The position numbers and the translations under genes were made by a program. A stretch of 64,000 nt of DNA from IMG/VR virus record IMGVR_UViG_3300031952_000006. One strand, 5' to 3'. The notes under the pieces were generated by a model. It was given only the letters and a program-made list of their open reading frames with translations. It had not been told where the DNA came from and made no database searches. This document shows, one piece after another, positions 40,771-62,905 of the stretch; positions within the stretch are counted from its first letter, which is position 1; each line of letters starts with the position of its first letter. The stretch is from a virus (lineage: Duplodnaviria > Heunggongvirae > Uroviricota > Caudoviricetes).

Positions 40771-40910
40771 GCCGGAGTAGCCCAATGGTTGAGGCACTTT
40801 TATTTTGAAAAAGCTAAAAACTTTACAGTTGGCATTACTCGAATGATTCGTCATTCCATCTATGGTAACTTACAAGCAAACAAATCTGAGTTCGAATCTC
40901 GGCTCCGGCA
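40771..40910 (+). tRNA. tRNA-Lys(UUU)-like gene carrying a 72-nt structured insert at the variable-loop position
   Basis: Perfect 7-bp acceptor GCCGGAG / CTCCGGC. D arm. Anticodon arm CTTTT-ATTTTGA-AAAAG (U33, TTT, G37). T arm CTGAG-TTCGAAT-CTCGG. Insert 40814-40885 contains GAATGA-TTCG-TCATTC. Confidence 0.5.
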
Positions 40911-44163: not shown

Positions 44164-44200
44164 AATTATTCAGTGACACGCCACCTGCGTCATGCTTACA

Positions 44201-44276
44201 AGCAAAATAGCTCAGTTGGTAGAGCAGAAGTCTCATACACTTTAGGTCGTCAGTTCAATTCTGACATTTGCATCCA
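44201..44276 (+). tRNA. tRNA, anticodon CAU (Met or Ile2), CCA encoded
   Basis: D arm GCTC-AGTTGGTA-GAGC. Anticodon arm GAAGT-CTCATAC-ACTTT. T arm GTCAG-TTCAATT-CTGAC. Acceptor pairs at 2-6 only (A1·A72 and A7·A66 mismatches). CCA at 44274-76. Confidence 0.55.
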
Positions 44277-44319
44277 AAATAGCATATGCTACTCGCGTGT
44301 CTTTGAATGGTTTATATAT

Positions 44320-44456
44320 GGGGAAGTAGCTCAGTAGTAGAGCAACTTACGGCAAAATAAGTGTTAAAACTTTTTAATTACTGTTACTCACGCAGTTCGC
44401 TGCGTCACATTCAGTAATTTACAAGCAATGCAGTGGTGCAACTCCACTCTTCCCCA
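44320..44456 (+). ncRNA. non-canonical tRNA-like gene with ~70-nt structured insert (homologous to the insert in 40771..40910)
   Basis: Perfect acceptor GGGGAAG / CTTCCCC. Canonical D arm GCTC-AGTAGTA-GAGC. Stem ACTTA/TAAGT with an 8-nt loop CGGCAAAA (no U33). T stem AGTGG/CCACT with atypical loop TGCAACT. Insert 44363-44430 has AATTACTG...ACGCAG-TTCG-CTGCGT...CAGTAATT. Confidence 0.4.
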
Positions 44457-44994: not shown

Positions 44995-45032
44995 TTATCA
45001 AAGAATAAAGGATTCCATCAGAGAATAGTTAC

Positions 45033-45104
45033 AAGCTTATTGTGCAATTGGTAGCACACCAGTTTTTAGGACCGGCAGTGGGAGTTCAAGTCTCTCTAAG
45101 TTTA
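45033..45104 (+). tRNA. tRNA with anticodon UUA (ochre/amber-suppressor-like), embedded in a stem-flanked unit 45010-45135
   Basis: Acceptor AAGCTTA / TAAGTTT. D arm GTGC-AATTGGTA-GCAC. Anticodon stem CCAGT/ACCGG (one A·C mismatch) with loop TTTTAGG (U33, TTA, G37). T arm GGGAG-TTCAAGT-CTCTC. 5' flank GGATTC...GAGAATAG pairs with 3' flank CTATTATC...GAATCC, then T6. Confidence 0.45.
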
Positions 45105-45144
45105 CACATACTATTATCAACTCGAATCCTTTTTTCAGTCATAA

Positions 45145-45447
45145 ATGGAGGTTCTTATGACACGCAGACAAAATGAAATAGCTCCTGTAGTAATCACACC
45201 ACTTAATGTAAGCGACGACATTCGCAACAAAATCTTTGTTACGATTGATGGCCGCGACTGGCAAAAAGATCTGTCAGAGCTTGGTCTCACCTTTGACTCT
45301 TCAGAGCGTGATATAATGTCACGTCTTACTCCGCTAATCCAGGAAGAGTTTAACCAAGACATCAGCGATACGTATAAGATTCGCAAGGCAATCAATAGTC
45401 AAAATATCTATGTTATTCCGAACAGTACTGCAGGAATTGTCCTGTAG
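45145..45447 (+). CDS. hypothetical protein (100 aa)
   Basis: AATGGAGG SD. Lies between the two stem-flanked RNA units. Confidence 0.45.
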   Translation: MEVLMTRRQNEIAPVVITPLNVSDDIRNKIFVTIDGRDWQKDLSELGLTFDSSERDIMSRLTPLIQEEFNQDISDTYKIRKAINSQNIYVIPNSTAGIVL

Positions 45448-45617
45448 CTGTTTATAAGCAGCGCCTCCATCAGAGTAGAGCTACAAGCAAATTTTCCAAG
45501 TTCGAATCTTGGAATCGCCGCAGGGCGATTTGGCCGATTGGATAAGGCAAAAGACTTGAAATCTTTGATATAGCACAAACGCTCTACTCAACTCGAGGCA
45601 CTGCTTATACACAGCTA
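45445..45617 (+). ncRNA. Y-RNA-like element: long bipartite closing stem plus circularly permuted tRNA-like module, immediately upstream of Ro60 gene
   Basis: The 21-nt arms 45445-65 and 45597-617 are complementary with 2 mismatches. A second helix AGAGTAGAGC / GCTCTACTC follows. The enclosed hairpins run in the order T-arm (CCAAG-TTCGAAT-CTTGG), acceptor-like (AATCGCC-GCAG-GGCGATT), D-like (GCC-GATTGGATAA-GGC), anticodon-like (AAAGA-CTTGAAA-TCTTT). Ends 14 nt before the Ro60 start codon. Confidence 0.5.
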
Positions 45618-45631
45618 TAAGGAGAATTATT

Positions 45632-47233
45632 ATGCAAGAACCAACACTATCCTATCTCTCTAATGAAGATCGTCTGAAAGCCTACAATGCCATCGTTGGA
45701 GGGTGCGAACACGTATACTCAAAAGGAAAACTACAGCATGAGAAACTTGCTGGAGTACTTAGCATATTCATTCAGCTTGCAGAGCATGATCCATACTTTC
45801 TTGCTCACTTTGCTTCATATGCTGTTAAGAACCTTGAAAGTAAAGACTTGAAGGTCATAGCTGCATTTGCAAACTCACTGTCTGATGCAGATGGTACTCC
45901 CTTCATCACCGGAAAGGATGCTCAAGGAAAACCTATCTATAGTCCGACATACAAGAAACCAAATCTTCGGTTGGTGTCACAAGCTGCTGTTCAGGAGTTC
46001 GATCCTAAGCTGGTGAATCGTATTATCGAAATTGCCAACTTAAAGCAATCGATCGGAACCAGAAGAGAGGCAACACACTTTGCCAATTCTTTAAAAACCG
46101 CTATCAAGAAATGGGTACGCTTTCGTGAACAAAATCCGAAGGCTCTTGAAGGTATGAAGAAATCAGGTTTCGCACCAACCTTCAAAAACATTTACCGGAT
46201 GATGCACATGAAACCAAGCCAGGAAGCTGCAGAGATTCTCGGTTGGAGACAGGGCAGCACAAAGAAAGGAAACGTTGAGAAGATTGAAAAAAGAAATCTC
46301 ATAGATTTCAAAGGGCTTACTGACATTCAAATTGCTCAGAAAATTCGTGATGAGAAGATCCCAGTCTTAGGCGCTATGGGAGCTCTACCTTCTAAGATAT
46401 CTCCCGTCATTGCTGCAGCTGTCCTTGAGCAAGCATCAGGAAACCAAGCAGTCATTCTCAGAAATCTGTTTGATAGTCAGGGTCTGCTTAAAGATAAAGA
46501 AGTAATGAGGGTCTTCACTGAAAAGATTCAGACTGCCAAAACAGCACTGGATAGGGTTGAAAAACTCAACACCGAAGTCGATGAAGAAGTTCAAAAAGTT
46601 CTGAAGACAGCTAAAGCTGATAAGCGTAAAAAGGATGTCGGAAATGTTGGACGTGCCTATATCCATATTGACATCAGCGGCAGCATGACCGGTGCTATCG
46701 AATTCGCCAAGAACAATGGTGCAATCATTGCTGAGTGTATTGAGAATCCTGCAGAGAACTTCTTCTGGGGAGCATTCAATACCAATGGATATTCTTTGTC
46801 TAAACCGGCATCATTTGAAAAAGATGCATTCATGGCTTCTCTGTATGGTCTCAATGCTGGTGGCGGAACAAACTGCCTTGCTTGCTACAGCGATGCTCGA
46901 AAGAACAACTGTGATATTGATATCTACATCACCGACCAAGAGCATATGGGAGAGCCTATTGACCAGCTCATTCTTAAATATGATGCGCAGGGATTCTCCC
47001 GGCCAAAAGCTGTCGTCGTTGTTGACTTTTCGAATGGAAGAAGCAATGGATCTTTTAAAGATCATCTTGAAAGAGTAGGGATTCCTGTTTCTGTTATAAA
47101 ACCGCAAGCACTGACAGAAAGTGCGCTGGTCTCTCAGGCAATTAAGACTGCTTTGAAGGGAGCTACTGCAGTTATTGATGAAATCATGAATACCCCGTTA
47201 CTCAAACTTCCAGCATACTGGGAAGCAGTGTAA
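45632..47233 (+). CDS. rsr: Ro60/Rsr orthologue (TROVE-like helical N-terminal region + C-terminal vWA domain)
   Basis: 533 aa. N-terminal ~340 aa helical repeats. C-terminal vWA with MIDAS DISGSM...T...ITDQE. Co-located with the Y-RNA-like element. AAGGAGA SD. Confidence 0.6.
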   Translation: MQEPTLSYLSNEDRLKAYNAIVGGCEHVYSKGKLQHEKLAGVLSIFIQLAEHDPYFLAHFASYAVKNLESKDLKVIAAFANSLSDADGTPFITGKDAQGKPIYSPTYKKPNLRLVSQAAVQEFDPKLVNRIIEIANLKQSIGTRREATHFANSLKTAIKKWVRFREQNPKALEGMKKSGFAPTFKNIYRMMHMKPSQEAAEILGWRQGSTKKGNVEKIEKRNLIDFKGLTDIQIAQKIRDEKIPVLGAMGALPSKISPVIAAAVLEQASGNQAVILRNLFDSQGLLKDKEVMRVFTEKIQTAKTALDRVEKLNTEVDEEVQKVLKTAKADKRKKDVGNVGRAYIHIDISGSMTGAIEFAKNNGAIIAECIENPAENFFWGAFNTNGYSLSKPASFEKDAFMASLYGLNAGGGTNCLACYSDARKNNCDIDIYITDQEHMGEPIDQLILKYDAQGFSRPKAVVVVDFSNGRSNGSFKDHLERVGIPVSVIKPQALTESALVSQAIKTALKGATAVIDEIMNTPLLKLPAYWEAV

Positions 47234-47234
47234 T

Positions 47235-47432
47235 ATGATTCGTGTAGGCGATATCTTACGAGGCTTTTGTTTTGGTTACTTTGGCAGAGATTCATTCGAT
47301 GATAAAATCGTAGAAGCGATGGGACCAGACTGGATCGTAGCCAGAGAAATAAACACAGGCATTGTAAGACTCGCTATACGAAATCATTCAGAGAGCTGGG
47401 AAAGTATTGAAAAGTCAATGAAAGGAGAATAA
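47235..47432 (+). CDS. hypothetical protein (65 aa)
   Basis: ORF immediately after the Ro60 stop. Confidence 0.35.
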   Translation: MIRVGDILRGFCFGYFGRDSFDDKIVEAMGPDWIVAREINTGIVRLAIRNHSESWESIEKSMKGE

Positions 47433-47433
47433 T

Positions 47434-47682
47434 ATGAAATTTGAAATTCAGCTTTTTAAATATCTTGGTATTGCTGTAGTCGGAGCAGCCTACTTCGGTG
47501 TCGGCATACCACTGCTTATCTCAGCAAATAATGATTTCCTGGCCTCTGCCGGAATAATTCTGATGTTATTGGGTATTGCTGGAATGATACTCTTCGTACG
47601 AAGAGAGGTTTTATTATATATGGATAAAAAAGGAGATGAAAAAGATGGATCAAAACATGAAACAAATGGTGGTACTCATTAG
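47434..47682 (+). CDS. small two-TM membrane protein (possible partner of the SPFH protein)
   Basis: AAAGGAGAATAATATG SD. Two TM helices. Confidence 0.4.
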   Translation: MKFEIQLFKYLGIAVVGAAYFGVGIPLLISANNDFLASAGIILMLLGIAGMILFVRREVLLYMDKKGDEKDGSKHETNGGTH

Positions 47683-48517
47683 TATTACTATTGTCGTTGC
47701 CATTGGAGGAATTTACGGCTGTTCTAGCTGTAAGAAAGTTCCTGCCGGTTATGTTGGCGTTAAGGTGTATTTGCTTGGTGGATCTAAAGGTGTTGATTCT
47801 GAAAAGCTCGGTGTTGGTCGGCACTTTATCGGAATGAATGAAGAATTGTATTTGTTTCCTACATTCAAGCAAAACTATGTATGGACCAAGTCAACCGACG
47901 AAGGAAGAGCACAAGACGAAAGTATAACTTTTCAAACTAAAGAAGGTCTTGAGATTGGAGCTGATGTCGGAATAACCTATTCAGTTGACCCTACAAAAGT
48001 TGATATTGTGTTTCAAAAATATCGCAAGGGTATTGAAGAAATTACCGACATATTTCTACGAAATAGAGTTCGGGATACATTCAACCTTGTTGCATCTCAA
48101 TATGATGTTGAATCTGCCTATGGTGAAGGAAAATCAAAAATGATTGAAGAAGTAAACACAACTCTCAAGGGAGAGCTTGAAAAAGAAGGTATCCTCATAG
48201 AGCGTGTTTATCTTATTGGTAAATTTCGATTACCTGAAGCAGTTACGACTGCCCTCAATGCTAAAATAGAAGCAACACAGAAGGCTCAACAATCTGAAAA
48301 TGAACTTCGTCAGGCAGAAGCAGAGGCAAAGAAAACTGTTGCATCTGCACGAGCGGAAGCAGAGGCAATTCGATTGAAACAACAATCACTTACGCCCCTT
48401 TTAGTTAAAATGCGATGGATTGAAGCGTGGGAGAAAGGTGGATCGAAGATGCCAATGGTTGTTGGCGGTAGTGGTAGTATTTTGAACATTCAGGATGTTT
48501 TAAAAGCTGGAGAATAA
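47636..48517 (+). CDS. SPFH/band-7 (stomatin/prohibitin-like) protein
   Basis: N-terminal TM helix, SPFH core, and a C-terminal coiled coil rich in A/E/Q (KAQQSENELRQAEAEAKKTVASARAEAEAIR). The true start may be a downstream Met (about 47657-47666). Confidence 0.6.
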   Translation: MKKMDQNMKQMVVLISITIVVAIGGIYGCSSCKKVPAGYVGVKVYLLGGSKGVDSEKLGVGRHFIGMNEELYLFPTFKQNYVWTKSTDEGRAQDESITFQTKEGLEIGADVGITYSVDPTKVDIVFQKYRKGIEEITDIFLRNRVRDTFNLVASQYDVESAYGEGKSKMIEEVNTTLKGELEKEGILIERVYLIGKFRLPEAVTTALNAKIEATQKAQQSENELRQAEAEAKKTVASARAEAEAIRLKQQSLTPLLVKMRWIEAWEKGGSKMPMVVGGSGSILNIQDVLKAGE

Positions 48518-49875: not shown

Positions 49876-50904
49876 ATGACTTATTTGACAAGTACAACGG
49901 GGACACTTACTGGAATAAGTTCATTCAATGATGCTACTGCAACGGGAAATTGGATTACTTATGACAATACAACAACAATAAATATAACTTCTGCTACAAA
50001 TATTTATTACAATCCTACTCAGTACAATCAATACATAACTAATGGTGGAACAGCAATCAATTTTGGCATTGTTCAAGACAAGAAAGTTATTCATCCTCAA
50101 TTATATTTTAAATTTGTTAAATCCGAGATGACCAAGCTTGAACAAAAAGAAATGACAGAACGCCTCTTCAAACTACAAACCTTGGTAAAGCAAGCTGAAG
50201 ACCTTGGGCAGAAAGCGCTATATGAAGACTTCGCTCGTAAGATTGCAATTACAGTTCGTGAACAGGAAATAAATGTCTGTGGAATTGAATACATCGTTAG
50301 CAAAGGCTCTGTGGATAAATATAAAGACAAAGTAAAAGATGTTGATATAAAGTTCAGCAAGCTTGAGGAATATTCTCGACCAATACCGACCAATGTTAAG
50401 AAACGCTTGGACAAGTTTAAGAAGCTCATGATGTTTGATAATTACATGGTGCTGTACCTTGATTATAAAGAGAAAATTGATATAGATAACAAAAAGAAAG
50501 CTGTTGCTGAACCGAAGACCAATAAACAAAAGATAAAGGAAAAAGATCCGATTCTGTTTGGAACTCTTGATTATGAACCAGATAAGCTCTACTTCATTGC
50601 CGACTGGATTGATGAATACTGTGATCTTACTCTTGATAAATTCGTACAAACGATTAAAAAGAATGATCCTGAGTACGAACTCGATGGCATTGACGAACTC
50701 GATGAAGAATATATTCAGAGAATGGTTAAAGAATCAAGAGAACGATTTGTTAGGTTGAAAGAAACTGATCCTGGAACGTATAAGAAACTCATGGTAGATG
50801 AAGATATGTCGTATCTTAAAAAACTTGAGAAAAAAGAATCGCAGGAACAAAAGAAAACATTAAGGGAAATAATATCACAAAGATTAAAAAAAGGTGATAA
50901 ATGA
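49876..50904 (+). CDS. hypothetical protein with T/N-rich N-terminus and K/E-rich coiled-coil C-terminus (342 aa)
   Basis: AGAGAGG SD. Confidence 0.4.
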   Translation: MTYLTSTTGTLTGISSFNDATATGNWITYDNTTTINITSATNIYYNPTQYNQYITNGGTAINFGIVQDKKVIHPQLYFKFVKSEMTKLEQKEMTERLFKLQTLVKQAEDLGQKALYEDFARKIAITVREQEINVCGIEYIVSKGSVDKYKDKVKDVDIKFSKLEEYSRPIPTNVKKRLDKFKKLMMFDNYMVLYLDYKEKIDIDNKKKAVAEPKTNKQKIKEKDPILFGTLDYEPDKLYFIADWIDEYCDLTLDKFVQTIKKNDPEYELDGIDELDEEYIQRMVKESRERFVRLKETDPGTYKKLMVDEDMSYLKKLEKKESQEQKKTLREIISQRLKKGDK

Positions 50905-51488
50905 ATATTGTAAGATTTGAAAATTTAAACCTTCTCAGTATTGGAAATACAGTACAAATTTCTGGTATGATTTGGTCAGGTGAAGGAATAAATTACCTAT
51001 GCTACCTCCCCGATGAGTTTAATCCAGAATATGATACTGTGCTTATGCCACTGACACTGGAAGAATGGAACGAACTGGTTCGCCAGTCTGATATCATGGA
51101 AACAGAAATCCTTGCAAAGGATACTGACGGAAATCTTGTAAAAACTATCCTGAGAAAATCTACCAGACAGATCGATCAAACTATTCAATGGAAAGTATTT
51201 CACAGAGATAATTACACATGTCGCTATTGTGGAAAAACGGGTATACCTCTCAGCGTAGATCATGTTGTTCTATGGGAAGAAGGTGGTCCATCTACCGAAG
51301 AAAATCTTATTACTGCATGTAAAAAATGCAATAAAACTAGGGGTAGTCAACAATATCCTAATTGGTTGATAAGTGAATATTATTTTAAAGTATCAAGAAA
51401 CATCAATGAGGAAACTCGTAAAAAGAATGCTGCGATTATTCAAACTCTGTATTCAATTCCAATAAGGATACATATGAAATCAAGATAA
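50901..51488 (+). CDS. HNH endonuclease
   Basis: HRDNYTCRYCGKTGIPLSVDHVVLWEEGGPSTEENLITACKKCNKTRG. ATGA-coupled. Confidence 0.7.
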   Translation: MNIVRFENLNLLSIGNTVQISGMIWSGEGINYLCYLPDEFNPEYDTVLMPLTLEEWNELVRQSDIMETEILAKDTDGNLVKTILRKSTRQIDQTIQWKVFHRDNYTCRYCGKTGIPLSVDHVVLWEEGGPSTEENLITACKKCNKTRGSQQYPNWLISEYYFKVSRNINEETRKKNAAIIQTLYSIPIRIHMKSR

Positions 51489-53923: not shown

Positions 53924-55531
53924 ATGAAACAAACTGAAGCCATTGAAATTATAATGGGAGGGCATAATGTTTTTCTTACCGGCGCTGCCGGATCAGGAAA
54001 AACATGGGTATTGAACAAATGCATTGAAAAATTAACAGAAAGCGGCAAGGATGTCGCAGTAACAGCCACAACTGGCATAGCTGCAACACACATAGATGGA
54101 TCTACAATACATTCCTGGTCAAGAATAATGATTCGTGATGAATCAGATTTAGCTGATGATGATGTCATAGAACACATTGTTGAAAACGATAAGACTGCTC
54201 GTAAGAATATACGAGCATGTGATGTTCTCATAATAGATGAAATATCTATGCTACACGCATACCAACTTGATGCTATCGATAAAATCTGCAAAGGAATTCG
54301 AAGATCAACCAAACCTTTTGGAGGAATTCAAATTATCTTATCTGGTGATTTCTTTCAACTTCCTCCCGTTGTTAAAAATGGAAAGAAAAAATGTTACGCA
54401 TTTGAATCACAGACATGGACAAGAAGCAACATAAAAGTTTGCTGTCTTGAAGAACAATATAGACAATTAGACAAGGAATTCATCTCAATTCTAAATGAAA
54501 TAAGAGAAAATTCGGTTAGTCCGACATCAAAAAAACTACTCGATAGCCGATACCTTGCAAAATTAGAAAATGAAAGTACACCGTTAAAATTATACCCACT
54601 AAATCAAGATGTAGATTTAATAAACTCAAGTGAGCTTGCAAAAATAAATAAACCAGCGAATACATACATAATGAACTCCTTTGGTGATCCAAATATCGTT
54701 GAATCCTTAAAAAAAGGATGCATTGCCAAAGAAGAACTTTCATTAAAAATAGGAACTCCTGTTATTTTTATAAAAAATAACAGGAAGGAAGGCTATATAA
54801 ATGGAACACAGGGAGTCGTTATCGGATTTACAGAGCCAGATCTTGATACTGAAGATTTCGATGAAGATACCGATGAAGAATCTAATGATGAAGAATACCC
54901 AATAGTAAAAACGATTGATGGTAAAATAATTACAGCATCTCCTGAATCCTGGAAAAGAATGAGACATGAAAAAACAGAAGTTCTTGATGAGTACGGAAAT
55001 AAGATAATTAAAGTACGTGAAGTTACTATAGCATCAGTCACTCAAATTCCTTTAATACTTGGTTGGTCAATAACTACGCACAAAGTACAAGGAATGTCGT
55101 TGGATTGTGTCGAAATGGATTTATCACGAGTATTTGAAGAAGGTATGGGATATGTTGCACTATCTCGAGTACGAACATTAGCTGGCATACGTCTTTTAGG
55201 AATGAATCAAATAGCACTGCGAGTTAATCCTAAGATTATTGAAATAGATAATATTTTCAGGAGTGACTCATATAAAAACAAAATTGAATTATGCTCAAAA
55301 GTTATTCTTTCTGAAAATTCAGATGAGAATTACGATAAAGAAGACGCTGATCTCGATGATATTTTTAAATCTTTTTGTGATTATGTTACAAAACAAACTG
55401 GAGAAGGGGCATCAAGAAGAACCATGGAAGCACTGGAAATTCTTTTTAATAGAATTGTTTCAGATCTTGATACTATTGTACTTGAGGCTACTTCACTGCA
55501 TAAAATTAGTAAAAATACCAAAGTGTCATGA
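53924..55531 (+). CDS. PIF1/RecD-like SF1 DNA helicase
   Basis: Walker A TGAAGSGKT. Walker B LIIDEISM. QLPPV. C-terminal SITTHKVQGMSLD. Confidence 0.75.
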   Translation: MKQTEAIEIIMGGHNVFLTGAAGSGKTWVLNKCIEKLTESGKDVAVTATTGIAATHIDGSTIHSWSRIMIRDESDLADDDVIEHIVENDKTARKNIRACDVLIIDEISMLHAYQLDAIDKICKGIRRSTKPFGGIQIILSGDFFQLPPVVKNGKKKCYAFESQTWTRSNIKVCCLEEQYRQLDKEFISILNEIRENSVSPTSKKLLDSRYLAKLENESTPLKLYPLNQDVDLINSSELAKINKPANTYIMNSFGDPNIVESLKKGCIAKEELSLKIGTPVIFIKNNRKEGYINGTQGVVIGFTEPDLDTEDFDEDTDEESNDEEYPIVKTIDGKIITASPESWKRMRHEKTEVLDEYGNKIIKVREVTIASVTQIPLILGWSITTHKVQGMSLDCVEMDLSRVFEEGMGYVALSRVRTLAGIRLLGMNQIALRVNPKIIEIDNIFRSDSYKNKIELCSKVILSENSDENYDKEDADLDDIFKSFCDYVTKQTGEGASRRTMEALEILFNRIVSDLDTIVLEATSLHKISKNTKVS

Positions 55532-60849: not shown

Positions 60850-61742
60850 TGGGTGGAGGATCGTATTCAGTATCTAACGCAACTGCAAGTGTTGAAGCAA
60901 GCTATACGACTATGGATGTAAAAACTGGTCGTAGGATGTTTAGATCAAAGGAAGAAATATTCACACAGAAATCTATCAACAATGCAATGAATCCTTATGG
61001 AATCGTCGTTCGAGAATCCCGAGATTCTAAGGAACATCCAAATTCCTTAGCTATCGTTATCGCTCTGGATGTTACCGGATCAATGGGATCGGTTCCTCAT
61101 CACCTCATTACTACAGGTCTTCCTACTCTTATGGGAGAGATTCTTGAGAAGGGAATCAAAGATCCCCAGGTTCTCTTTATGGGAATAGGAGACCATGAGT
61201 GCGATCAATCACCCCTGCAGGTAGCTCAGTTTGAGTCCAGCGACGACCTTCTGGATAAATGGCTCAAGGATGTCTATCTCGAAGGTGGTGGTGGGGCAAA
61301 CTATGGGGAATCATATCATCTCGCGTGGTACTTGGCTGGATATCATACGGCTATTGACTGTTTCGAAAAAAGAGGTGAGAAAGGATTTCTCTTTACCATA
61401 GGAGATGAACCAGTTCTTAAAAAAATATCAAAAAGCAAAGTAAAGGATATTATGGGTGATGGTCAGTATGAAGATTTTACGCACGATGCCCTTTTAAAAA
61501 AAGCTATGGAGAAGTACAATGTGTACCATCTTCATATTAAAGAAACCGCAGCTGGAAGTCGAAAAGAAGTTATCGATGGATGGAAACAAATTCTTCACGA
61601 TAATCTCATTGTCGTTGAGAATCATAGTGAATTGGCAACAACCATTGCTGACATTATAATCAAAAACGCTGCTACAAAACCAGAACAGAAAGTTGATGTT
61701 AAAATAGATATTAAGATTGAGAAACCTGAAATAATTCTATGA
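60849..61742 (+). CDS. von Willebrand factor A (vWA) domain protein
   Basis: MIDAS VIALDVTGSMGS. 297 aa. Overlaps the downstream PurA-like gene by 4 nt. Confidence 0.55.
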   Translation: MGGGSYSVSNATASVEASYTTMDVKTGRRMFRSKEEIFTQKSINNAMNPYGIVVRESRDSKEHPNSLAIVIALDVTGSMGSVPHHLITTGLPTLMGEILEKGIKDPQVLFMGIGDHECDQSPLQVAQFESSDDLLDKWLKDVYLEGGGGANYGESYHLAWYLAGYHTAIDCFEKRGEKGFLFTIGDEPVLKKISKSKVKDIMGDGQYEDFTHDALLKKAMEKYNVYHLHIKETAAGSRKEVIDGWKQILHDNLIVVENHSELATTIADIIIKNAATKPEQKVDVKIDIKIEKPEIIL

Positions 61743-62905
61743 AAAAGAAGAAACTGTTGGCTGTAATCGGCTTGTTATATGGCGACGAAGGAAAGGGACT
61801 CACAGTCGATTACCTTTGCTCACAAAATCCTAACTCGCTTGTCATTCGTTACTCAGGCGGCCCTCAGGCAGGGCATACCGTGTGCTATAATGGCATGCGG
61901 CATGTCTTTGCTAGTTTTGGATCAGGAACATTTAGAAAAGCTCCAACGTACATTTCTAAATATTGTGTTATTGATCCTATCGCTATTTTAAATGAATACA
62001 CTATATTATTAAAGAAAGATCTTTCGCCTGTTCTTTACATTGATATACGCTGTCCGGTAATAACCCCTTATGATTCTTTTCATAGTGGGACAGATAAGCA
62101 GTTTAAAGAGAACGGAACCTGCGGGGTTGGCATTGGTTCTACGTATCAGCGAGAACAGGATTTTTATTCTTTAACATTTCTCGATTTGTTTTACCCGTCT
62201 GTGTTGAAAATAAAACTTGAGAACATTAGAAAATATTACAAAGGTAGAAAAGATTTTGATTTAACACTGTTTTTAAAAGGATGTTCTTTTCTTACAGATA
62301 CGTTGAATTCTGCCTACTTCATTAAAAGAGCATACGGAATACCAAATATAAAATGTTCTACGTATATATTCGAAGGATCACAGGGGCTTCTTCTGGATCA
62401 AAACATAGGATTCTTCCCGCATGTTACACGAGGAAATACGGGGAGCAAGAATATTATAGAATTGTGTGGAACAGAGGATATTGAATTCTACCTTGTTACG
62501 AGAGCATATCAAACTCGTCATGGAAATGGTCCGATGACAAATGAAAACATATCTCATAATATACAAATCAATCCAGATGAGACAAATAGAAACCATCCTC
62601 ATCAAGGTGTTTTTAGAAGATCACTTTTAGATCTCAACTTGATTCATTATGGGATAAGTAAAGATTCTGTTATCTGTCATGCAAAGAAAAAAACTCTGGT
62701 TATTACATGCTTGGATCATATTAAAAATTCAAAGGTGTTATTTGAAGATATGTATAGATTTGTAGCCGCAGATTCTGTTTGTCGAAGTTATAATGAAAAT
62801 GAATTTATTGGAAAGATATCTAAAATACTGGATATACCTGACGTTCTCGCAAGTTCATCAGATGAGTCTAAAAATATGAAGAAACTACATTTTAAGGGAG
62901 ATTGA
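61739..62905 (+). CDS. adenylosuccinate-synthetase-family enzyme (PurA-like, PurZ candidate), 388 aa
   Basis: P-loop GDEGKG, GGPQAGHT, FEGSQGLLLDQNIGFFPHVTRGNT, YQTRHGNGP. These motifs align with E. coli PurA GDEGKGK / GGHNAGHT / [24 protein letters not shown] / YSTRVGAGP. About 40 aa shorter than cellular PurA. Confidence 0.7.
   Translation: MKKKKLLAVIGLLYGDEGKGLTVDYLCSQNPNSLVIRYSGGPQAGHTVCYNGMRHVFASFGSGTFRKAPTYISKYCVIDPIAILNEYTILLKKDLSPVLYIDIRCPVITPYDSFHSGTDKQFKENGTCGVGIGSTYQREQDFYSLTFLDLFYPSVLKIKLENIRKYYKGRKDFDLTLFLKGCSFLTDTLNSAYFIKRAYGIPNIKCSTYIFEGSQGLLLDQNIGFFPHVTRGNTGSKNIIELCGTEDIEFYLVTRAYQTRHGNGPMTNENISHNIQINPDETNRNHPHQGVFRRSLLDLNLIHYGISKDSVICHAKKKTLVITCLDHIKNSKVLFEDMYRFVAADSVCRSYNENEFIGKISKILDIPDVLASSSDESKNMKKLHFKGD

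What the first reader, a model, noticed from the sequence alone, without database searches (positions are those of the whole stretch)
45496..45566. tRNA-like module of the Y-RNA-like element is circularly permuted (T-arm, closed acceptor stem, D-arm, anticodon arm)
Inside the closing stem the hairpins occur in the order T-arm (45496-45512), a 7-bp perfect stem closed by a GCAG loop that mimics a joined acceptor stem (AATCGCC-GCAG-GGCGATT, 45513-45530), then TG, a D-arm-like GCC-GATTGGATAA-GGC (45533-48), and a perfect anticodon-arm-like AAAGA-CTTGAAA-TCTTT (45550-66; U at loop position 2, triplet TGA). Reading round the circle gives acceptor, D, anticodon, T in the canonical order. This is the topology of permuted tRNA genes, known from a red alga and some archaea. 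It has not been described for Y-RNA tRNA-like modules, which normally lack an anticodon arm.
Basis: seen in the sequence. Interest (0 to 1): 0.7.

Follow-up and report, generated by a model that had tools for sequence, protein, structure and literature searches.

The report
Permuted tRNA mimic in phage Y-RNA
A small RNA gene next to a phage Ro60-like gene folds into a complete tRNA shape whose parts are encoded in rotated order; this layout is already known for bacterial Y RNAs, but here the rotation point differs and unrotated sister genes lie nearby.

Summary
The four hairpins are real, lie at the stated coordinates and are not chance. RNAalifold on a MAFFT alignment of 20 homologous elements from other metagenomic or phage contigs returns the same T arm, closed 7-bp acceptor stem, D arm and 5-bp/7-nt anticodon arm. 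Compensatory changes occur in 18 of 20 pairs. A covariance model built without the window finds 45482-45569 at 71.5 bits (E about 1e-11).

YrlA Y RNAs have been described explicitly as circularly permuted tRNA mimics with closed acceptor stems (Chen 2014; Wang 2018).

Three things are different here:
- The anticodon arm is a closed hairpin.
- The RNA ends leave the cloverleaf at the variable-arm position and form the Y stem, which has a conserved bulged helix plus an invariant UACAAGC.
- The same window holds sister genes with the same Y site, either as a hairpin in the variable arm of a normal-order tRNA-like gene or as a stem flanking a normal tRNA.

The neighbouring 533-aa protein has no Pfam or PHROG match but is Ro60-like by fold. 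The anticodon triplet is not conserved among close relatives. The best reading is a non-decoding tRNA mimic on a Ro60-like scaffold, which makes it a new variant of a known kind.

The parts
45440..45445 (+). Outer extension of the closing stem. TCCT (45440-43) pairs with AGGA (45620-23), which lies in the Shine-Dalgarno of the Ro60-like gene. The stop codon of the upstream ORF (TAG, 45445-47) lies in the stem.
   Evidence: MFE fold. An anti-SD CTCC is also present upstream in L010 and L011 (sequences).
45446..45467 (+). 5' strand of the closing helix of the Y stem (AGCTGT-T-TATAAGCAG-C-GCCTC). The last 4-5 bp form the conserved, covarying N-U-Y-C / G-R-R-N helix.
45468..45472 (+). 5' side of the conserved internal loop (CAUCA). 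Its first C is the conserved unpaired C of the family motif R-U-Y-C-C-(A/C)-Y. Predicted Ro60-contact site.
   Evidence: Consensus of the canonical Y sites among 46 scored. Compared with GGUCCGA, the motif contacted by X. laevis Ro60 (Chen 2014). Protein binding is inferred.
45473..45481 (+). 5' strand of the inner helix (GAGTAGAGC).
   Evidence: Compensatory changes occur at all 8 inner-helix pairs predicted on the 19-sequence alignment.
45482..45488 (+). Invariant heptamer UACAAGC, the hallmark of the whole family. Its UAC may correspond to the conserved YUAY of YrlA.
   Evidence: Invariant in A2, A3 and A4. Present in all five family members of the window. YUAY is described in Chen 2014.
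45489..45495 (+). 5' linker (AAAUUUU) between UACAAGC and the T arm. Its length is 1-12 nt or more in homologues.
45496..45512 (+). T arm: CCAAG-UUCGAAU-CUUGG.
   Evidence: G53, U54, U55, C56, A58, U60 and C61 are invariant in 20 of 20.
45513..45530 (+). Acceptor stem of 7 bp closed by the tetraloop GCAG. The 3' strand is 45513-19, the loop 45520-23 and the 5' strand 45524-30.
   Evidence: All 7 pairs show compensatory changes.
45531..45532 (+). U8 and G9.
   Evidence: U8 is invariant and position 9 is a purine in 20 of 20.
45533..45548 (+). D arm: GCC(G)-AUUGGAUA-(A)GGC, with A14, G18, G19 and A21.
   Evidence: GG is present in the D loop in 19 of 20.
45549..45549 (+). A26.
   Evidence: A in 19 of 20.
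45550..45566 (+). Anticodon arm: AAAGA-CUUGAAA-UCUUU.
   Evidence: U33 in 17 of 20, R37 in 20 of 20, A38 in 17 of 20; the triplet is free.
45567..45580 (+). 3' linker (GAUAUAGCACAAAC) between the anticodon arm and the inner helix.
45581..45589 (+). 3' strand of the inner helix (GCTCTACTC).
45590..45594 (+). 3' side of the internal loop (AACUC). It is part of the family motif Y-N-A-C-U-Y-G-R-A-Y.
45595..45618 (+). 3' strand of the closing helix (GAGGC-A-CTGCTTATA-C-ACAGCTAT).
45632..47233 (+). Gene for a divergent Ro60-like protein (TROVE ring plus vWA with a DxSxS MIDAS motif), the presumed protein partner.
   Evidence: AlphaFold2 model, pLDDT 80.6. The 12 best Foldseek PDB matches are all Ro60/TROVE structures, including Thermus phage phiLo Ro60 (E down to 3.5e-10, TM about 0.5). 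phmmer against PDB gives human Ro60 at E 3.7e-4. Pfam gives only a weak vWA_Ro60 match in 9 of 37 homologues. No PHROG match.
45145..45447 (+). Small ORF (96-100 aa, beta-grasp-like). It is a conserved partner immediately upstream and is fused to the N-terminus of the Ro60-like protein in many relatives.

Best explanation
Segment 45496-45566 is the tRNA-like module of a Y-RNA-type element of about 175 nt (45446-45618). The element is encoded on the + strand between a small beta-grasp-like ORF and a divergent Ro60-like gene of a large uncultured phage.

The module is a complete tRNA cloverleaf in circularly permuted gene order: T arm, 7-bp acceptor stem capped by a tetraloop, U8-R9, D arm, A26, then a closed 5-bp/7-nt anticodon arm. 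The two ends of the RNA leave the cloverleaf where a tRNA has its variable arm. There they pair into a 9-bp inner helix, a conserved internal loop with an unpaired C, and a closing helix of 20 bp or more. The invariant heptamer UACAAGC sits at the junction.

Proposed mechanism:
1. The Ro60-like ring binds the conserved Y site.
2. The L-shaped tRNA body, held together by the usual D-loop/T-loop contacts, is presented as a non-decoding tRNA mimic to a tRNA-recognising partner. This is the role proposed for YrlA.
3. In the window's clade the acceptor stem carries a plain tetraloop and probably stays closed.
4. In more distant relatives the loop starts with N73-CCA followed by a spacer. It is probably opened by RNase P and trimmed, as shown experimentally for M. 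smegmatis YrlA, giving a two-piece RNA.
5. The element most likely arose from the junction of two tandem copies of a normal-order tRNA-like gene that already carried the Y site as a long variable arm. Such genes still lie in the same window.

Shown here: the structure, its conservation and covariation, the Ro60-like fold of the neighbouring protein, and the sister topologies.

Inferred: protein binding, the mimic role, processing, and the origin.
For: Structure:
- MFE fold and z-score.
- Independent MFE folds of 25 homologues give the same architecture in most.
- RNAalifold on MAFFT alignments gives 4 arms with 18 of 20 pairs compensatory. The full element, including the closing and inner helices, gives 35 of 37.
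- Pair counts with shuffle and slide controls.
- Leave-out covariance model: 71.5 bits. There are 19 clean family members at 54 bits or more in other loci.

tRNA-likeness:
- Rfam tRNA half-match.
- ARAGORN calls tRNA on re-permuted constructs of 24 elements at 11-13 of 16 cut lengths, against sporadic single calls in shuffled controls.
- The tertiary-contact nucleotides are invariant.

Y-RNA context:
- The element lies 14 nt upstream of the start codon of a Ro60-fold protein, on the same strand.
- The Y-site consensus R-U-Y-C-C-A / A-C-U-Y-G-R-A-Y has a covarying helix.
- It resembles the GGUCCGA motif contacted by Xenopus Ro60 (Chen 2014). From my own knowledge, it also resembles the ACUUGAC of human Y RNA 3' strands.

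Known precedent:
- YrlA is a permuted tRNA mimic. M. smegmatis YrlA, which has a 7-bp acceptor stem, is cut by RNase P and receives CCA in vivo.
- A phage Ro60 binds phage Y-like RNAs and host PNPase (PMC12135203).

Non-decoding:
- The triplet differs among close relatives on identical D and anticodon stems: TGA, TGT, ACA, TAA.

Variable-arm position of the Y stem and origin:
- Window genes 40771-40910 and 44320-44456 pass Rfam's tRNA threshold (39.6 and 40.6 bits) with a 68-76-nt insert that is the same Y site as a hairpin followed by UACAAGC and the T arm.
- Eleven such genes give 24 of 27 compensatory pairs.
- Acceptor loops begin N-CCA in 7 of 20, where 1 in 64 is expected by chance.
Against: - There is no expression, end-mapping or binding data of any kind.
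- No Rfam Y_RNA or other family match was found.
- The bacterial GNCGAA motif is absent from the 5' strand.
- The T and D stems vary freely here, whereas they are nearly invariant in YrlA. The effector may therefore differ from YrlA's.
- U33, R37 and A38 are conserved, U34 is frequent (12 of 20), the acceptor stems are 7 bp, and N73-CCA is encoded in relatives. These are features one would also expect of working tRNAs.
- The closing stem sequesters the Shine-Dalgarno of the Ro60-like gene, so part of the selection on the stem could be cis-regulatory.
- About 5 of roughly 25 permuted relatives lack a clear anticodon arm.
- The candidate set was picked by a parser that required T-stem and acceptor pairing, and I chose by eye those with an anticodon arm. 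The percentage paired is therefore partly by construction. The variety of pair types is not.
Confidence: 0.55

Rival explanations
1. It is a real permuted (or split) tRNA gene. RNase P and 3' trimming or CCA addition open the acceptor loop. The result is a two-piece tRNA held together by the acceptor stem and the long Y helix, or a ligated tRNA after excision of the Y stem. This tRNA is charged and decodes.
For: - The cloverleaf is complete, with 7-bp acceptor stems, all tertiary-contact nucleotides, U33 and R37.
- ARAGORN accepts the re-permuted sequences.
- N73-CCA is encoded in 7 of 20 acceptor loops.
- Anticodons are diverse and often have U34, as in phage tRNA sets. Tandem arrays of three or four such units occur in L020 and L032.
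- 15 of 33 ordinary ARAGORN tRNAs in these loci start inside UACAAGC, within the same Y stems. One homologous series reads CAU, GAU and UAU, all compatible with the isoleucine box.
- Wang 2018 raised this possibility for YrlA.
Against: - The triplet changes across amino-acid boxes among close relatives while the body stays the same. The permuted element reads TGA, TGT, ACA and TAA. The stem-flanked element reads UUA, ACG and GCA between phages whose Ro60-like proteins are 78-95% identical.
- Discriminator bases do not match the implied identities (sequences).
- No bulge-helix-bulge motif is present, and no splicing endonuclease is known in bacteria.
- No RtcB or other ligase was recognised among the 20 ORFs scanned at 32-63 kb.
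- A variable arm of more than 30 bp carrying a 60-kDa ring is unlikely to fit the ribosome (inference).
- In the window's clade the acceptor loop is a bare tetraloop without CCA.
Confidence: 0.12
2. It is a decoy or sponge. The tRNA-like body, with its variable anticodon loop, baits host tRNA-targeting defence enzymes (anticodon nucleases and the like) or tRNA-modifying enzymes. The Ro60-like ring stabilises the decoy or hands the bound or cleaved RNA to an exonuclease.
For: - The geometry of the anticodon loop is conserved (U33, R37, A38) while the triplet varies fast.
- In the sister element at 45007-45132, the anticodon loop is among the regions that differ most between the window and a phage whose Ro60-like protein is 95% identical. 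The loops read UUUUAGG and CAACGAA, while 46 nt of the Y stem 5' strand are identical. The variable region and T stem also differ, the T stem with compensatory changes.
- The Ro60-like gene is genomically linked to phage tRNA arrays even at 25% identity (Virus Rctr197k).
- The review literature places phage TROVE proteins in RNA-repair and conflict systems (PMC7824862).
Against: - The idea is purely inferential.
- Fast change of the triplet is equally explained by lack of constraint.
- No nuclease, repair or defence-related gene was identified next to the element.
Confidence: 0.15
3. It is mainly a cis-acting leader. The long stem pairs the end of the upstream ORF with the Shine-Dalgarno of the Ro60-like gene. 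The tRNA-like fold is an operator through which the Ro60-like protein, or a tRNA-binding factor, controls translation of the downstream gene.
For: - The MFE fold pairs TCCT (45440-43) with AGGA (45620-23) within AAGGAG, 8 nt before the ATG.
- An anti-SD CTCC is also found upstream in L010 and L011.
- The scans found no distinct promoter or terminator signal bounding the element.
- The element sits exactly where relatives have an uninterrupted fusion gene.
Against: - The same Y site and tRNA modules occur many times away from any start codon, in tandem arrays and downstream of the Ro60-like gene (L004, L020, L032, L033). The fold is therefore selected independently of the Shine-Dalgarno.
- SD pairing is weak in L008.
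- This reading can coexist with the best explanation.
Confidence: 0.1
4. It is a decaying junction between two adjacent tRNA genes: the T arm and acceptor 3' strand of one, then the acceptor 5' strand, D arm and anticodon arm of the next. It has no function of its own.
For: - Junctions of neighbouring tRNA-like genes do give weak hits to the permuted model (28.5 bits or less in the window).
- The likely evolutionary origin is a tandem dimer.
Against: - The acceptor strands are perfectly complementary and covary at all 7 pairs.
- The closing and inner helices, which span the whole unit, covary at all 17 predicted pairs.
- The unit is conserved from 95% down to about 50% identity of the neighbouring protein.
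Confidence: 0.03

Closest known systems
YrlA Y RNAs (S. Typhimurium YrlA, PDB 6cu1; M. smegmatis YrlA; mycobacteriophage YrlA-like RNAs)
   Same: - Encoded next to a Ro60 gene on the same strand.
- A long stem is formed by the 5' and 3' ends.
- The internal module has the order T arm, closed acceptor stem, D arm, that is, a circularly permuted tRNA mimic.
- A conserved UA(Y) lies ahead of the T arm.
- A 7-bp acceptor stem, as in the M. smegmatis RNA that RNase P cleaves.
   Different: - The anticodon arm is a closed 5-bp/7-nt hairpin. In YrlA an open stem leads to the Ro60 site.
- The break is in the variable region, not in the anticodon loop.
- There is no GNCGAA motif. The site reads RUYCC(A/C)Y / ACUYGRAY plus UACAAGC.
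- The T and D stems vary freely instead of being nearly invariant.
- The protein partner is a very divergent Ro60 with no Pfam TROVE match.
Circularly permuted tRNA genes (Cyanidioschyzon merolae; Thermofilum pendens)
   Same: - The 3' half (T arm, acceptor 3' strand) precedes the 5' half (acceptor 5' strand, D arm, anticodon arm).
- The acceptor stem is initially closed by an intervening loop.
- The termini pair with each other.
   Different: - There is no bulge-helix-bulge motif at the paired termini.
- The paired termini form a conserved helix of about 30 bp with a protein-site-like internal loop.
- The anticodon is not conserved among close relatives.
- The setting is a bacterial-type phage.
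- There is no evidence of circular intermediates or of a mature tRNA.
Class II tRNAs (Ser, Leu, bacterial Tyr) with a long variable arm
   Same: - In the normal-order sister genes (40771-40910 and 44320-44456) the Y-site hairpin occupies the variable-arm position.
- The window module has a 3-bp D stem, the sequence UGGCCGA...AAGGCA, the loop CUUGAAA and G73, all like bacterial tRNA-Ser(UGA). The comparison with E. coli tRNA-Ser is from my own knowledge.
   Different: - The arm is 60-90 nt long with a conserved internal loop and UACAAGC.
- In the finding itself the arm is open-ended and carries the RNA termini.
D. radiodurans Yrn1
   Same: - A Y RNA with a T arm and a modelled 5-bp 'anticodon arm'.
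   Different: - The orientation of the arms differs, the loop is 6 nt and the D arm is incomplete (Chen 2014).
Thermus phage phiLo Ro60 with Yrl1/Yrl2
   Same: - A phage-encoded Ro60 ring with phage-encoded Y-like RNAs upstream of the gene. It is among the best structural matches of the window protein.
   Different: - The phiLo RNAs were identified through a CGAA motif and a stem-bulge-stem shape. No tRNA-like module is reported for them.
Two-piece (circularly permuted) tmRNA genes
   Same: - A permuted gene order of a tRNA-like domain in bacteria and phage-related elements.
   Different: - ARAGORN finds no tmRNA in the window.
- tmRNA has no anticodon arm and carries a tag reading frame.

Membership tests
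YrlA-type Y RNA | Encoded within about 4 kb of a Ro60 ortholog on the same strand | tested here: met
   The element ends 14 nt before the ATG of a Ro60-fold protein on the + strand. The same arrangement occurs in L001, L008, L010, L011, L013 and L019.
YrlA-type Y RNA | Module with T arm, closed acceptor-like stem-loop and D arm in that order, with tRNA tertiary-contact nucleotides | tested here: met
YrlA-type Y RNA | GNCGAAN0-1G motif near the 5' end (presumed Rsr site) | tested here: not met
   There is no CGAA in 45446-45481. The family consensus is R-U-Y-C-C-(A/C)-Y instead.
YrlA-type Y RNA | Nearly invariant T-stem and D-stem sequences | tested here: not met
   Four of five T-stem pairs and two of three D-stem pairs change on both sides among 20 homologues.
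YrlA-type Y RNA | Anticodon-stem equivalent formed by the 5' and 3' strands and leading to the Ro60 site | tested here: not met
   A closed 5-bp/7-nt hairpin follows A26. The strands that lead to the Y site leave from the variable region.
YrlA-type Y RNA | Bound by Ro60/Rsr; carries tRNA modifications (pseudouridine 55, dihydrouridine) | not testable with these tools
   This needs immunoprecipitation and modification mapping.
Metazoan-type Y RNA (Rfam RF00019) | Match to the Rfam Y_RNA covariance model | tested here: not met
   No hit was found even at E up to 10 on 45380-45680.
Metazoan-type Y RNA (Rfam RF00019) | Terminal stem with a conserved bulged helix (GGUCCGA / UUGAC) | tested here: inconclusive
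   The window has GCCUC-C-AUC / ACUC-GAGGC and the family has GUUC-C-A / ACUUGAAC. The plan is similar, with an unpaired C and ACUUGA. The comparison with human Y RNA sequences is from memory.
Circularly permuted tRNA gene | 3' half encoded upstream of the 5' half; re-joining gives a canonical cloverleaf | tested here: met
   ARAGORN calls tRNA-Ser(tga) on the re-joined sequence with a short variable loop.
Circularly permuted tRNA gene | Bulge-helix-bulge motif at the paired termini for the splicing endonuclease | tested here: not met
   The paired termini have a 5-nt by 5-nt internal loop between a 9-bp helix and a helix of 20 bp or more. They do not have two 3-nt bulges 4 bp apart.
Circularly permuted tRNA gene | Anticodon maintained as a decoding element | tested here: not met
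   The triplets are TGA, TGA, ACA, TGT, TAA and TAA on the same D and anticodon stems in the closest six homologues.
Circularly permuted tRNA gene | Circular intermediate and a mature, charged tRNA | not testable with these tools
   This needs RT-PCR across the junction and aminoacylation assays.
Ro60/TROVE protein (neighbouring gene) | HEAT-repeat ring plus a vWA domain with MIDAS | tested here: met
   The fold search gives full-length matches to Ro60 structures only (top 12). A DISGS motif is present in the translation. Sequence models fail: there is no Pfam TROVE match, and a profile against PDB gives no hit.

The most novel reading that the evidence does not exclude
The Ro60-like protein and its Y site form a phage platform for tRNA biogenesis or protection. 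Under this reading the Y site is a handle built into phage tRNA genes in three topologies: flanking leader-trailer stem, variable-arm hairpin, and permuted. The permuted units, including this one, would then be matured by RNase P and CCA completion into two-piece, chargeable tRNAs, or into anticodon-nuclease-resistant substitutes, carried on the ring. That would be the first permuted or split tRNA system in bacteria or phages, and a direct functional link between Ro60 and tRNA supply.
Probability: 0.15. Interest if true: 0.9.

Novelty: new variant of a known kind. Interest (0 to 1): 0.6.

Why it matters
Y RNAs are thought to derive from tRNAs, perhaps from dimeric tRNA transcripts, but intermediates have been missing. 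This window holds three forms side by side, all sharing one conserved Ro60-type site:
- ordinary-looking tRNAs flanked by the site;
- normal-order tRNA-like genes that carry the site as a long variable arm;
- the permuted form.

That is a plausible living series for how a tRNA becomes a Y RNA. It also suggests that a Ro60 site can sit on the variable arm.

The window further exposes a large family of Ro60-like proteins in big phages. The family has more than 300 metagenomic homologues, no Pfam or PHROG match, and often carries an N-terminal beta-grasp domain. It is tied to tRNA arrays.

If the RNAs are processed or charged, this would extend permuted or split tRNAs to the bacterial virus world.

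Tried and rejected
- blastn (distant mode) of 45100-47300 against 50,697 GenBank phage records gave no match.
- tblastn of the protein against the same records gave only two distant hits: Virus Rctr197k at 25.6% identity and LR756511.
- Rfam gave nothing but tRNA in the window. No Y_RNA or other family appeared near the element even at E up to 10.
- Pfam at 1e-3 and PHROGs at 1e-5 gave nothing for the Ro60-like protein or the small ORF. A profile of 37 homologues against PDB sequences gave nothing. Only the fold search identified the protein.
- The collection scan with TACAAGCN{6,20}GTTCRAATC was heavily contaminated by ordinary tRNA genes, probably tRNA-Val(UAC), whose anticodon loop reads cUUACAAgc and gives the common 12-nt spacing. 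It yielded only a few real members: L122, L134, and probably L072, L119 and L130.
- I first thought the module descends from tRNA-Ser(UGA). That is only weakly tenable. The class II look holds for the window's clade, but other members have class I D arms and the triplet is not conserved.
- A possible pairing of CAAG (in UACAAGC) with CUUG (3' motif) finds no covariation support. The window has CUCG with an unchanged CAAG.
- The intergenic gaps of the Rctr197k tRNA array show no recognisable Y site.
- The promoter and terminator scan was uninformative.
- No RNA ligase, kinase-phosphatase or CCA-adding enzyme was found among 20 ORFs at 32-63 kb. The matches were HNH, PIF1 helicase, nitroreductase and an adenylosuccinate-synthetase-like protein. 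The downstream ORF 47636-48517 is SPFH/Band 7.
- The scan of GTDB genomes found a single relative, on a 9-kb MAG contig.
- The fold of the small ORF gave only weak beta-grasp-like matches. The afdb50 library was unavailable.
- Supplementary alignments of Chen 2014 are not held and the Annual Review paper is not held. No direct sequence comparison with a bona fide YrlA could therefore be made.
Full report
OBSERVATION

The window sequence reads, from 45496:
- CCAAG-TTCGAAT-CTTGG (T arm)
- AATCGCC-GCAG-GGCGATT (seven perfect pairs closed by a tetraloop)
- TG
- GCC(G)-ATTGGATA-(A)GGC (D arm with A14, G18, G19 and A21)
- A
- AAAGA-CTTGAAA-TCTTT (5-bp stem, 7-nt loop, U at loop position 2)

An unconstrained fold of 45440-45625 returns exactly these four hairpins inside a long stem (-77.7 kcal/mol, z = -8.9, none of 200 shuffles as stable). 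Rfam's tRNA model aligns 45524-45584 as acceptor 5' strand, D arm and anticodon arm at 28.2 bits, just under its threshold of 29, and finds the T arm missing where a normal tRNA would have it. When the two halves are re-joined in silico, ARAGORN calls tRNA-Ser(tga).

SURROUNDINGS

The element fills the 184-nt gap between a 100-aa ORF (45145-45447) and a 533-aa ORF (45632-47233).

The 533-aa protein has no Pfam or PHROG match. A profile of 37 homologues finds nothing in PDB sequences. An AlphaFold2 model (pLDDT 80.6) has as its 12 best PDB matches only Ro60/TROVE structures, aligned over the full length. They include the Ro60 of Thermus phage phiLo (E down to 3.5e-10, TM about 0.5). A DISGS MIDAS motif is visible in the translation. 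The label 'Y-RNA-like element next to a Ro60 gene' is therefore justified, although the protein is very divergent.

The protein has more than 300 metagenomic homologues. It has almost none in GenBank phages or in GTDB genomes. Several homologues lie on IMG/VR viral contigs of 20-253 kb, and other members of the RNA family lie on contigs of up to 949 kb. One window ORF matches phage family phrog_16728 at 1.6e-142. The window is most likely part of a large uncultured phage.

CONSERVATION

I fetched 59 loci around homologues of the protein. The same unit stands directly upstream of the gene in L008/L009 (95% protein identity), L010 (79%), L011 (78%), L013 (64%), L001 (54%) and L019 (53%). It also occurs elsewhere in many loci, sometimes as three or four tandem copies (L020, L032).

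The evidence for a conserved structure is as follows:
- Each homologue, folded on its own, gives the same architecture in most cases.
- RNAalifold on a plain MAFFT alignment of 20 modules predicts a 5-bp T arm, a 7-bp acceptor stem, a 3-bp D stem and a 5-bp anticodon stem. Of these 20 pairs, 18 show compensatory changes.
- With that structure, 99% of cells are paired. The covariation score is 0.948 against 0.236 in shuffles (0 of 500 reach it) and 0.11-0.19 when partners are slid by 1-3 columns.
- The full-length alignment of 19 elements adds a 9-bp closing helix and an 8-bp inner helix. In all, 35 of 37 pairs are compensatory.
- A covariance model built from 17 homologues, leaving out the window and its near-identical L008/L009, finds the window element at 71.5 bits (E about 1e-11) over its whole length. 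Nothing else in the window exceeds 28.5 bits.
- Across 57 sources there are 19 clean members at 54 bits or more.

One caveat applies. The candidates were found with a parser that required T-stem and acceptor pairing, and I then chose by eye those with an anticodon arm. About 5 of 25 permuted units lack a clear one. The percentage paired is therefore partly by construction. The diversity of pair types and the leave-out score are not.

WHAT IS CONSERVED IN THE MODULE

The following positions are conserved among the 20 homologues:
- U8, G10, G53, U54, U55, C56, A58, U60 and C61: 20 of 20.
- GG in the D loop: 19 of 20.
- A26: 19 of 20.
- U33: 17 of 20.
- A purine at position 37: 20 of 20.
- A38: 17 of 20.

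These are the nucleotides that hold a tRNA in its L shape and give the anticodon loop its U-turn.

The triplet itself is free. Among the six closest homologues, which share the same D and anticodon stem sequences, it reads TGA, TGA, ACA, TGT, TAA and TAA.

The acceptor loop is a tetraloop in the window's clade (GCAG, TCG, TTCG, GAAG, TTAG). In 7 of 20 members it begins N-CCA followed by a spacer, where 1 in 64 is expected by chance. In L019 the spacer itself is a hairpin.

THE Y SITE

About 40 canonical sites, among 46 scored, give this consensus:
- 5' strand: R-U-Y-C-C-(A/C)-Y, then an inner helix of 8-10 bp, then the invariant UACAAGC.
- 3' strand: inner helix, then Y-N-A-C-U-Y-G-R-A-Y.

The four pairs next to the internal loop covary: GUUC/GAAC, GUCC/GGAC, AUUC/GAAU, CCUC/GAGG and GCUC/GAGC. 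The following C is always unpaired.

This is the plan of the Ro60-binding helix of animal Y RNAs. GGUCCGA is the motif contacted by Xenopus Ro60 (Chen 2014). The ACUUGAC of human Y RNA 3' strands is from my own knowledge. The bacterial GNCGAA motif of YrlA is absent, and Rfam's Y_RNA model does not match.

SISTER TOPOLOGIES (outside the finding's coordinates, but decisive for interpreting it)

The heptamer UACAAGC marks four more genes in the window.

Genes 40771-40910 and 44320-44456 pass Rfam's tRNA threshold (39.6 and 40.6 bits). They have an open acceptor stem, a D arm and a T arm, plus a 68-76-nt insert. In 40771-40910 the insert follows a normal anticodon arm. It reads: inner helix, UACUC, a hairpin closed by UUCG, CAUCU, inner helix, UACAAGC, linker, T arm. 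That is the same Y site as a hairpin in the variable-arm position, and it is an exact circular permutation of the finding. Eleven such genes from several loci give 24 of 27 compensatory pairs.

Units 44175-44301 and 45007-45132 are Y stems that enclose normal-order tRNAs: tRNA(CAU) at 44201-44276 and tRNA(UUA) at 45033-45105. There, UAC|AAGC runs into the acceptor stem. In the Ro60-like loci, 15 of 33 ARAGORN tRNAs start inside this heptamer.

The Y stem of the finding therefore occupies the place of a long variable arm. The permuted form is what one obtains from the junction of two tandem variable-arm-type genes. The acceptor loop then corresponds to N73-CCA plus the intergenic spacer. This fits the dimeric-tRNA origin model quoted by Wang 2018.

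COMPARISON WITH WHAT IS KNOWN

Chen et al. 2014 described YrlA as V region, T arm, closed acceptor stem and D arm. They showed pseudouridine 55 and dihydrouridine in it. They also showed that M. smegmatis YrlA, the one with a 7-bp acceptor stem, is cut by RNase P and receives CCA in vivo.

Wang et al. 2018 solved the structure. In it the anticodon stem is formed by nt 15-27 and 83-93, that is, by the 5' and 3' strands leading to the Rsr site. [quoted passage not shown]

The permutation as such is therefore known. What differs here:
- a closed canonical anticodon arm;
- the break in the variable region;
- a different Ro60-site motif;
- freely varying T and D stems, which are nearly invariant in YrlA;
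- coexistence with non-permuted sisters.

On these tests the element is not a YrlA in the strict sense. It is a new variant of the tRNA-like Y RNA kind.

MECHANISM

Best supported (confidence about 0.55): a non-decoding tRNA mimic is held on the Ro60-like ring through the Y site and offered to a tRNA-recognising partner. The acceptor stays closed in this clade and is probably opened and CCA-completed in relatives. The structure and its conservation are shown. Binding, the partner and processing are inferred from YrlA and from the phiLo phage Ro60-Yrl-PNPase work.

Rivals:
- A true permuted or split tRNA (0.12). It is favoured by the completeness of the cloverleaf, U33/R37 and the encoded CCA. 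It is disfavoured by triplet drift across amino-acid boxes on a constant body, by mismatched discriminators, and by the absence of a BHB motif or a ligase.
- A decoy for tRNA-targeting enzymes (0.15). It is suggested by the fast-changing anticodon loops on conserved bodies.
- A cis-acting translational operator (0.10). The outer stem pairs with the Shine-Dalgarno of the Ro60-like gene, but the same fold recurs far from start codons.
- A dead tRNA junction (0.03). This is contradicted by the covariation.

VERDICT

The finding is a new variant of a known kind. Its interest is moderate to high, mainly because of the three coexisting topologies and the unannotated Ro60-like family tied to phage tRNA arrays.

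Noticed in passing
window 40771-40910 and 44320-44456 (+): Two normal-order tRNA-like genes pass Rfam's tRNA threshold (39.6 and 40.6 bits). Each carries a 68-76-nt insert that is the same Y site as a hairpin closed by UUCG, followed by UACAAGC and the T arm. In 40771-40910 the insert sits in the variable-arm position after an anticodon arm (CTTTT-ATTTTGA-AAAAG). In 44320-44456 the anticodon arm is replaced or has an 8-nt loop.
   Followed up: yes
window 44175-44301 and 45007-45132 (+): Y-type stems with the same internal loop (CACCU/UACUC and CAUCA/AACUC) and UACAAGC enclose normal-order tRNAs: tRNA(CAU) at 44201-44276 and tRNA(UUA, reads the UAA stop) at 45033-45105. In phages whose Ro60-like proteins are 78-95% identical, the homologous units keep the Y stem but differ in the anticodon loop. 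The first series reads CAU, GAU and UAU. The second reads UUA, ACG and GCA.
   Followed up: partly
window 45440-45443 with 45620-45623: The closing stem extends outward, so the end of the upstream ORF (TCCT, with stop TAG at 45445-47) pairs with AGGA of the Shine-Dalgarno AAGGAG of the Ro60-like gene. An anti-SD CTCC is also present in L010 and L011. This may indicate translational control.
   Followed up: partly
window 45145-45447 (+); P0084 residues 10-86: The small ORF upstream is a conserved partner, found in 31 loci. It has a beta-beta-alpha-beta-beta (beta-grasp-like) core and an invariant C-terminal P-x-S-x-A-G. In many relatives it is fused in frame to the N-terminus of the Ro60-like protein (the 600-644-aa homologues). 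In the window's clade the RNA element sits exactly at that domain boundary.
   Followed up: partly
L181 (Virus Rctr197k, KX853510.1 180303-189853): The only annotated GenBank phage with a clear relative of the Ro60-like protein (25.6% identity, annotated 'conserved hypothetical') has the gene directly downstream of an array of at least 29 tRNA genes. No UACAAGC-type Y site was seen in the array gaps.
   Followed up: partly
L019 1342-1444; L035 and L044 about 1270-1400: These are variants of the permuted unit. L019 has two alternative acceptor 5' strands (GGAGAAA and GGAGAAG) separated by a small hairpin after GCCA. L035 and L044 have a T arm and an acceptor with N-CCA and an insert of about 50 nt, but no recognisable D or anticodon arm.
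   Followed up: no
L002 2100-2200; L024/L025 upstream of the gene: These are minimal versions of the element: the Y site and UACAAGC (L002) or only the bulged helix (L024) with a short hairpin instead of a tRNA module. The tRNA-like part is therefore dispensable in some relatives.
   Followed up: no
window 61739-62905 (+): This ORF matches adenylosuccinate synthetase (Pfam PF00709, E 6.5e-44). In phages such genes can be PurZ, which is used to make 2-aminoadenine DNA. I did not examine this further.
   Followed up: no
window 47636-48517, 50901-51488 and 53924-55531 (+): The neighbouring genes downstream of the Ro60-like gene are an SPFH/Band 7 protein, an HNH endonuclease and a PIF1-like helicase. 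No RNA ligase or repair enzyme was recognised.
   Followed up: no
Viral-contig scan, loci L060-L179: The motif TACAAGC followed 12 nt later by GTTCRAATC is mostly the anticodon loop and T arm of ordinary tRNA genes, probably tRNA-Val(UAC). Pattern searches for this family need the Y-site context as well.
   Followed up: yes
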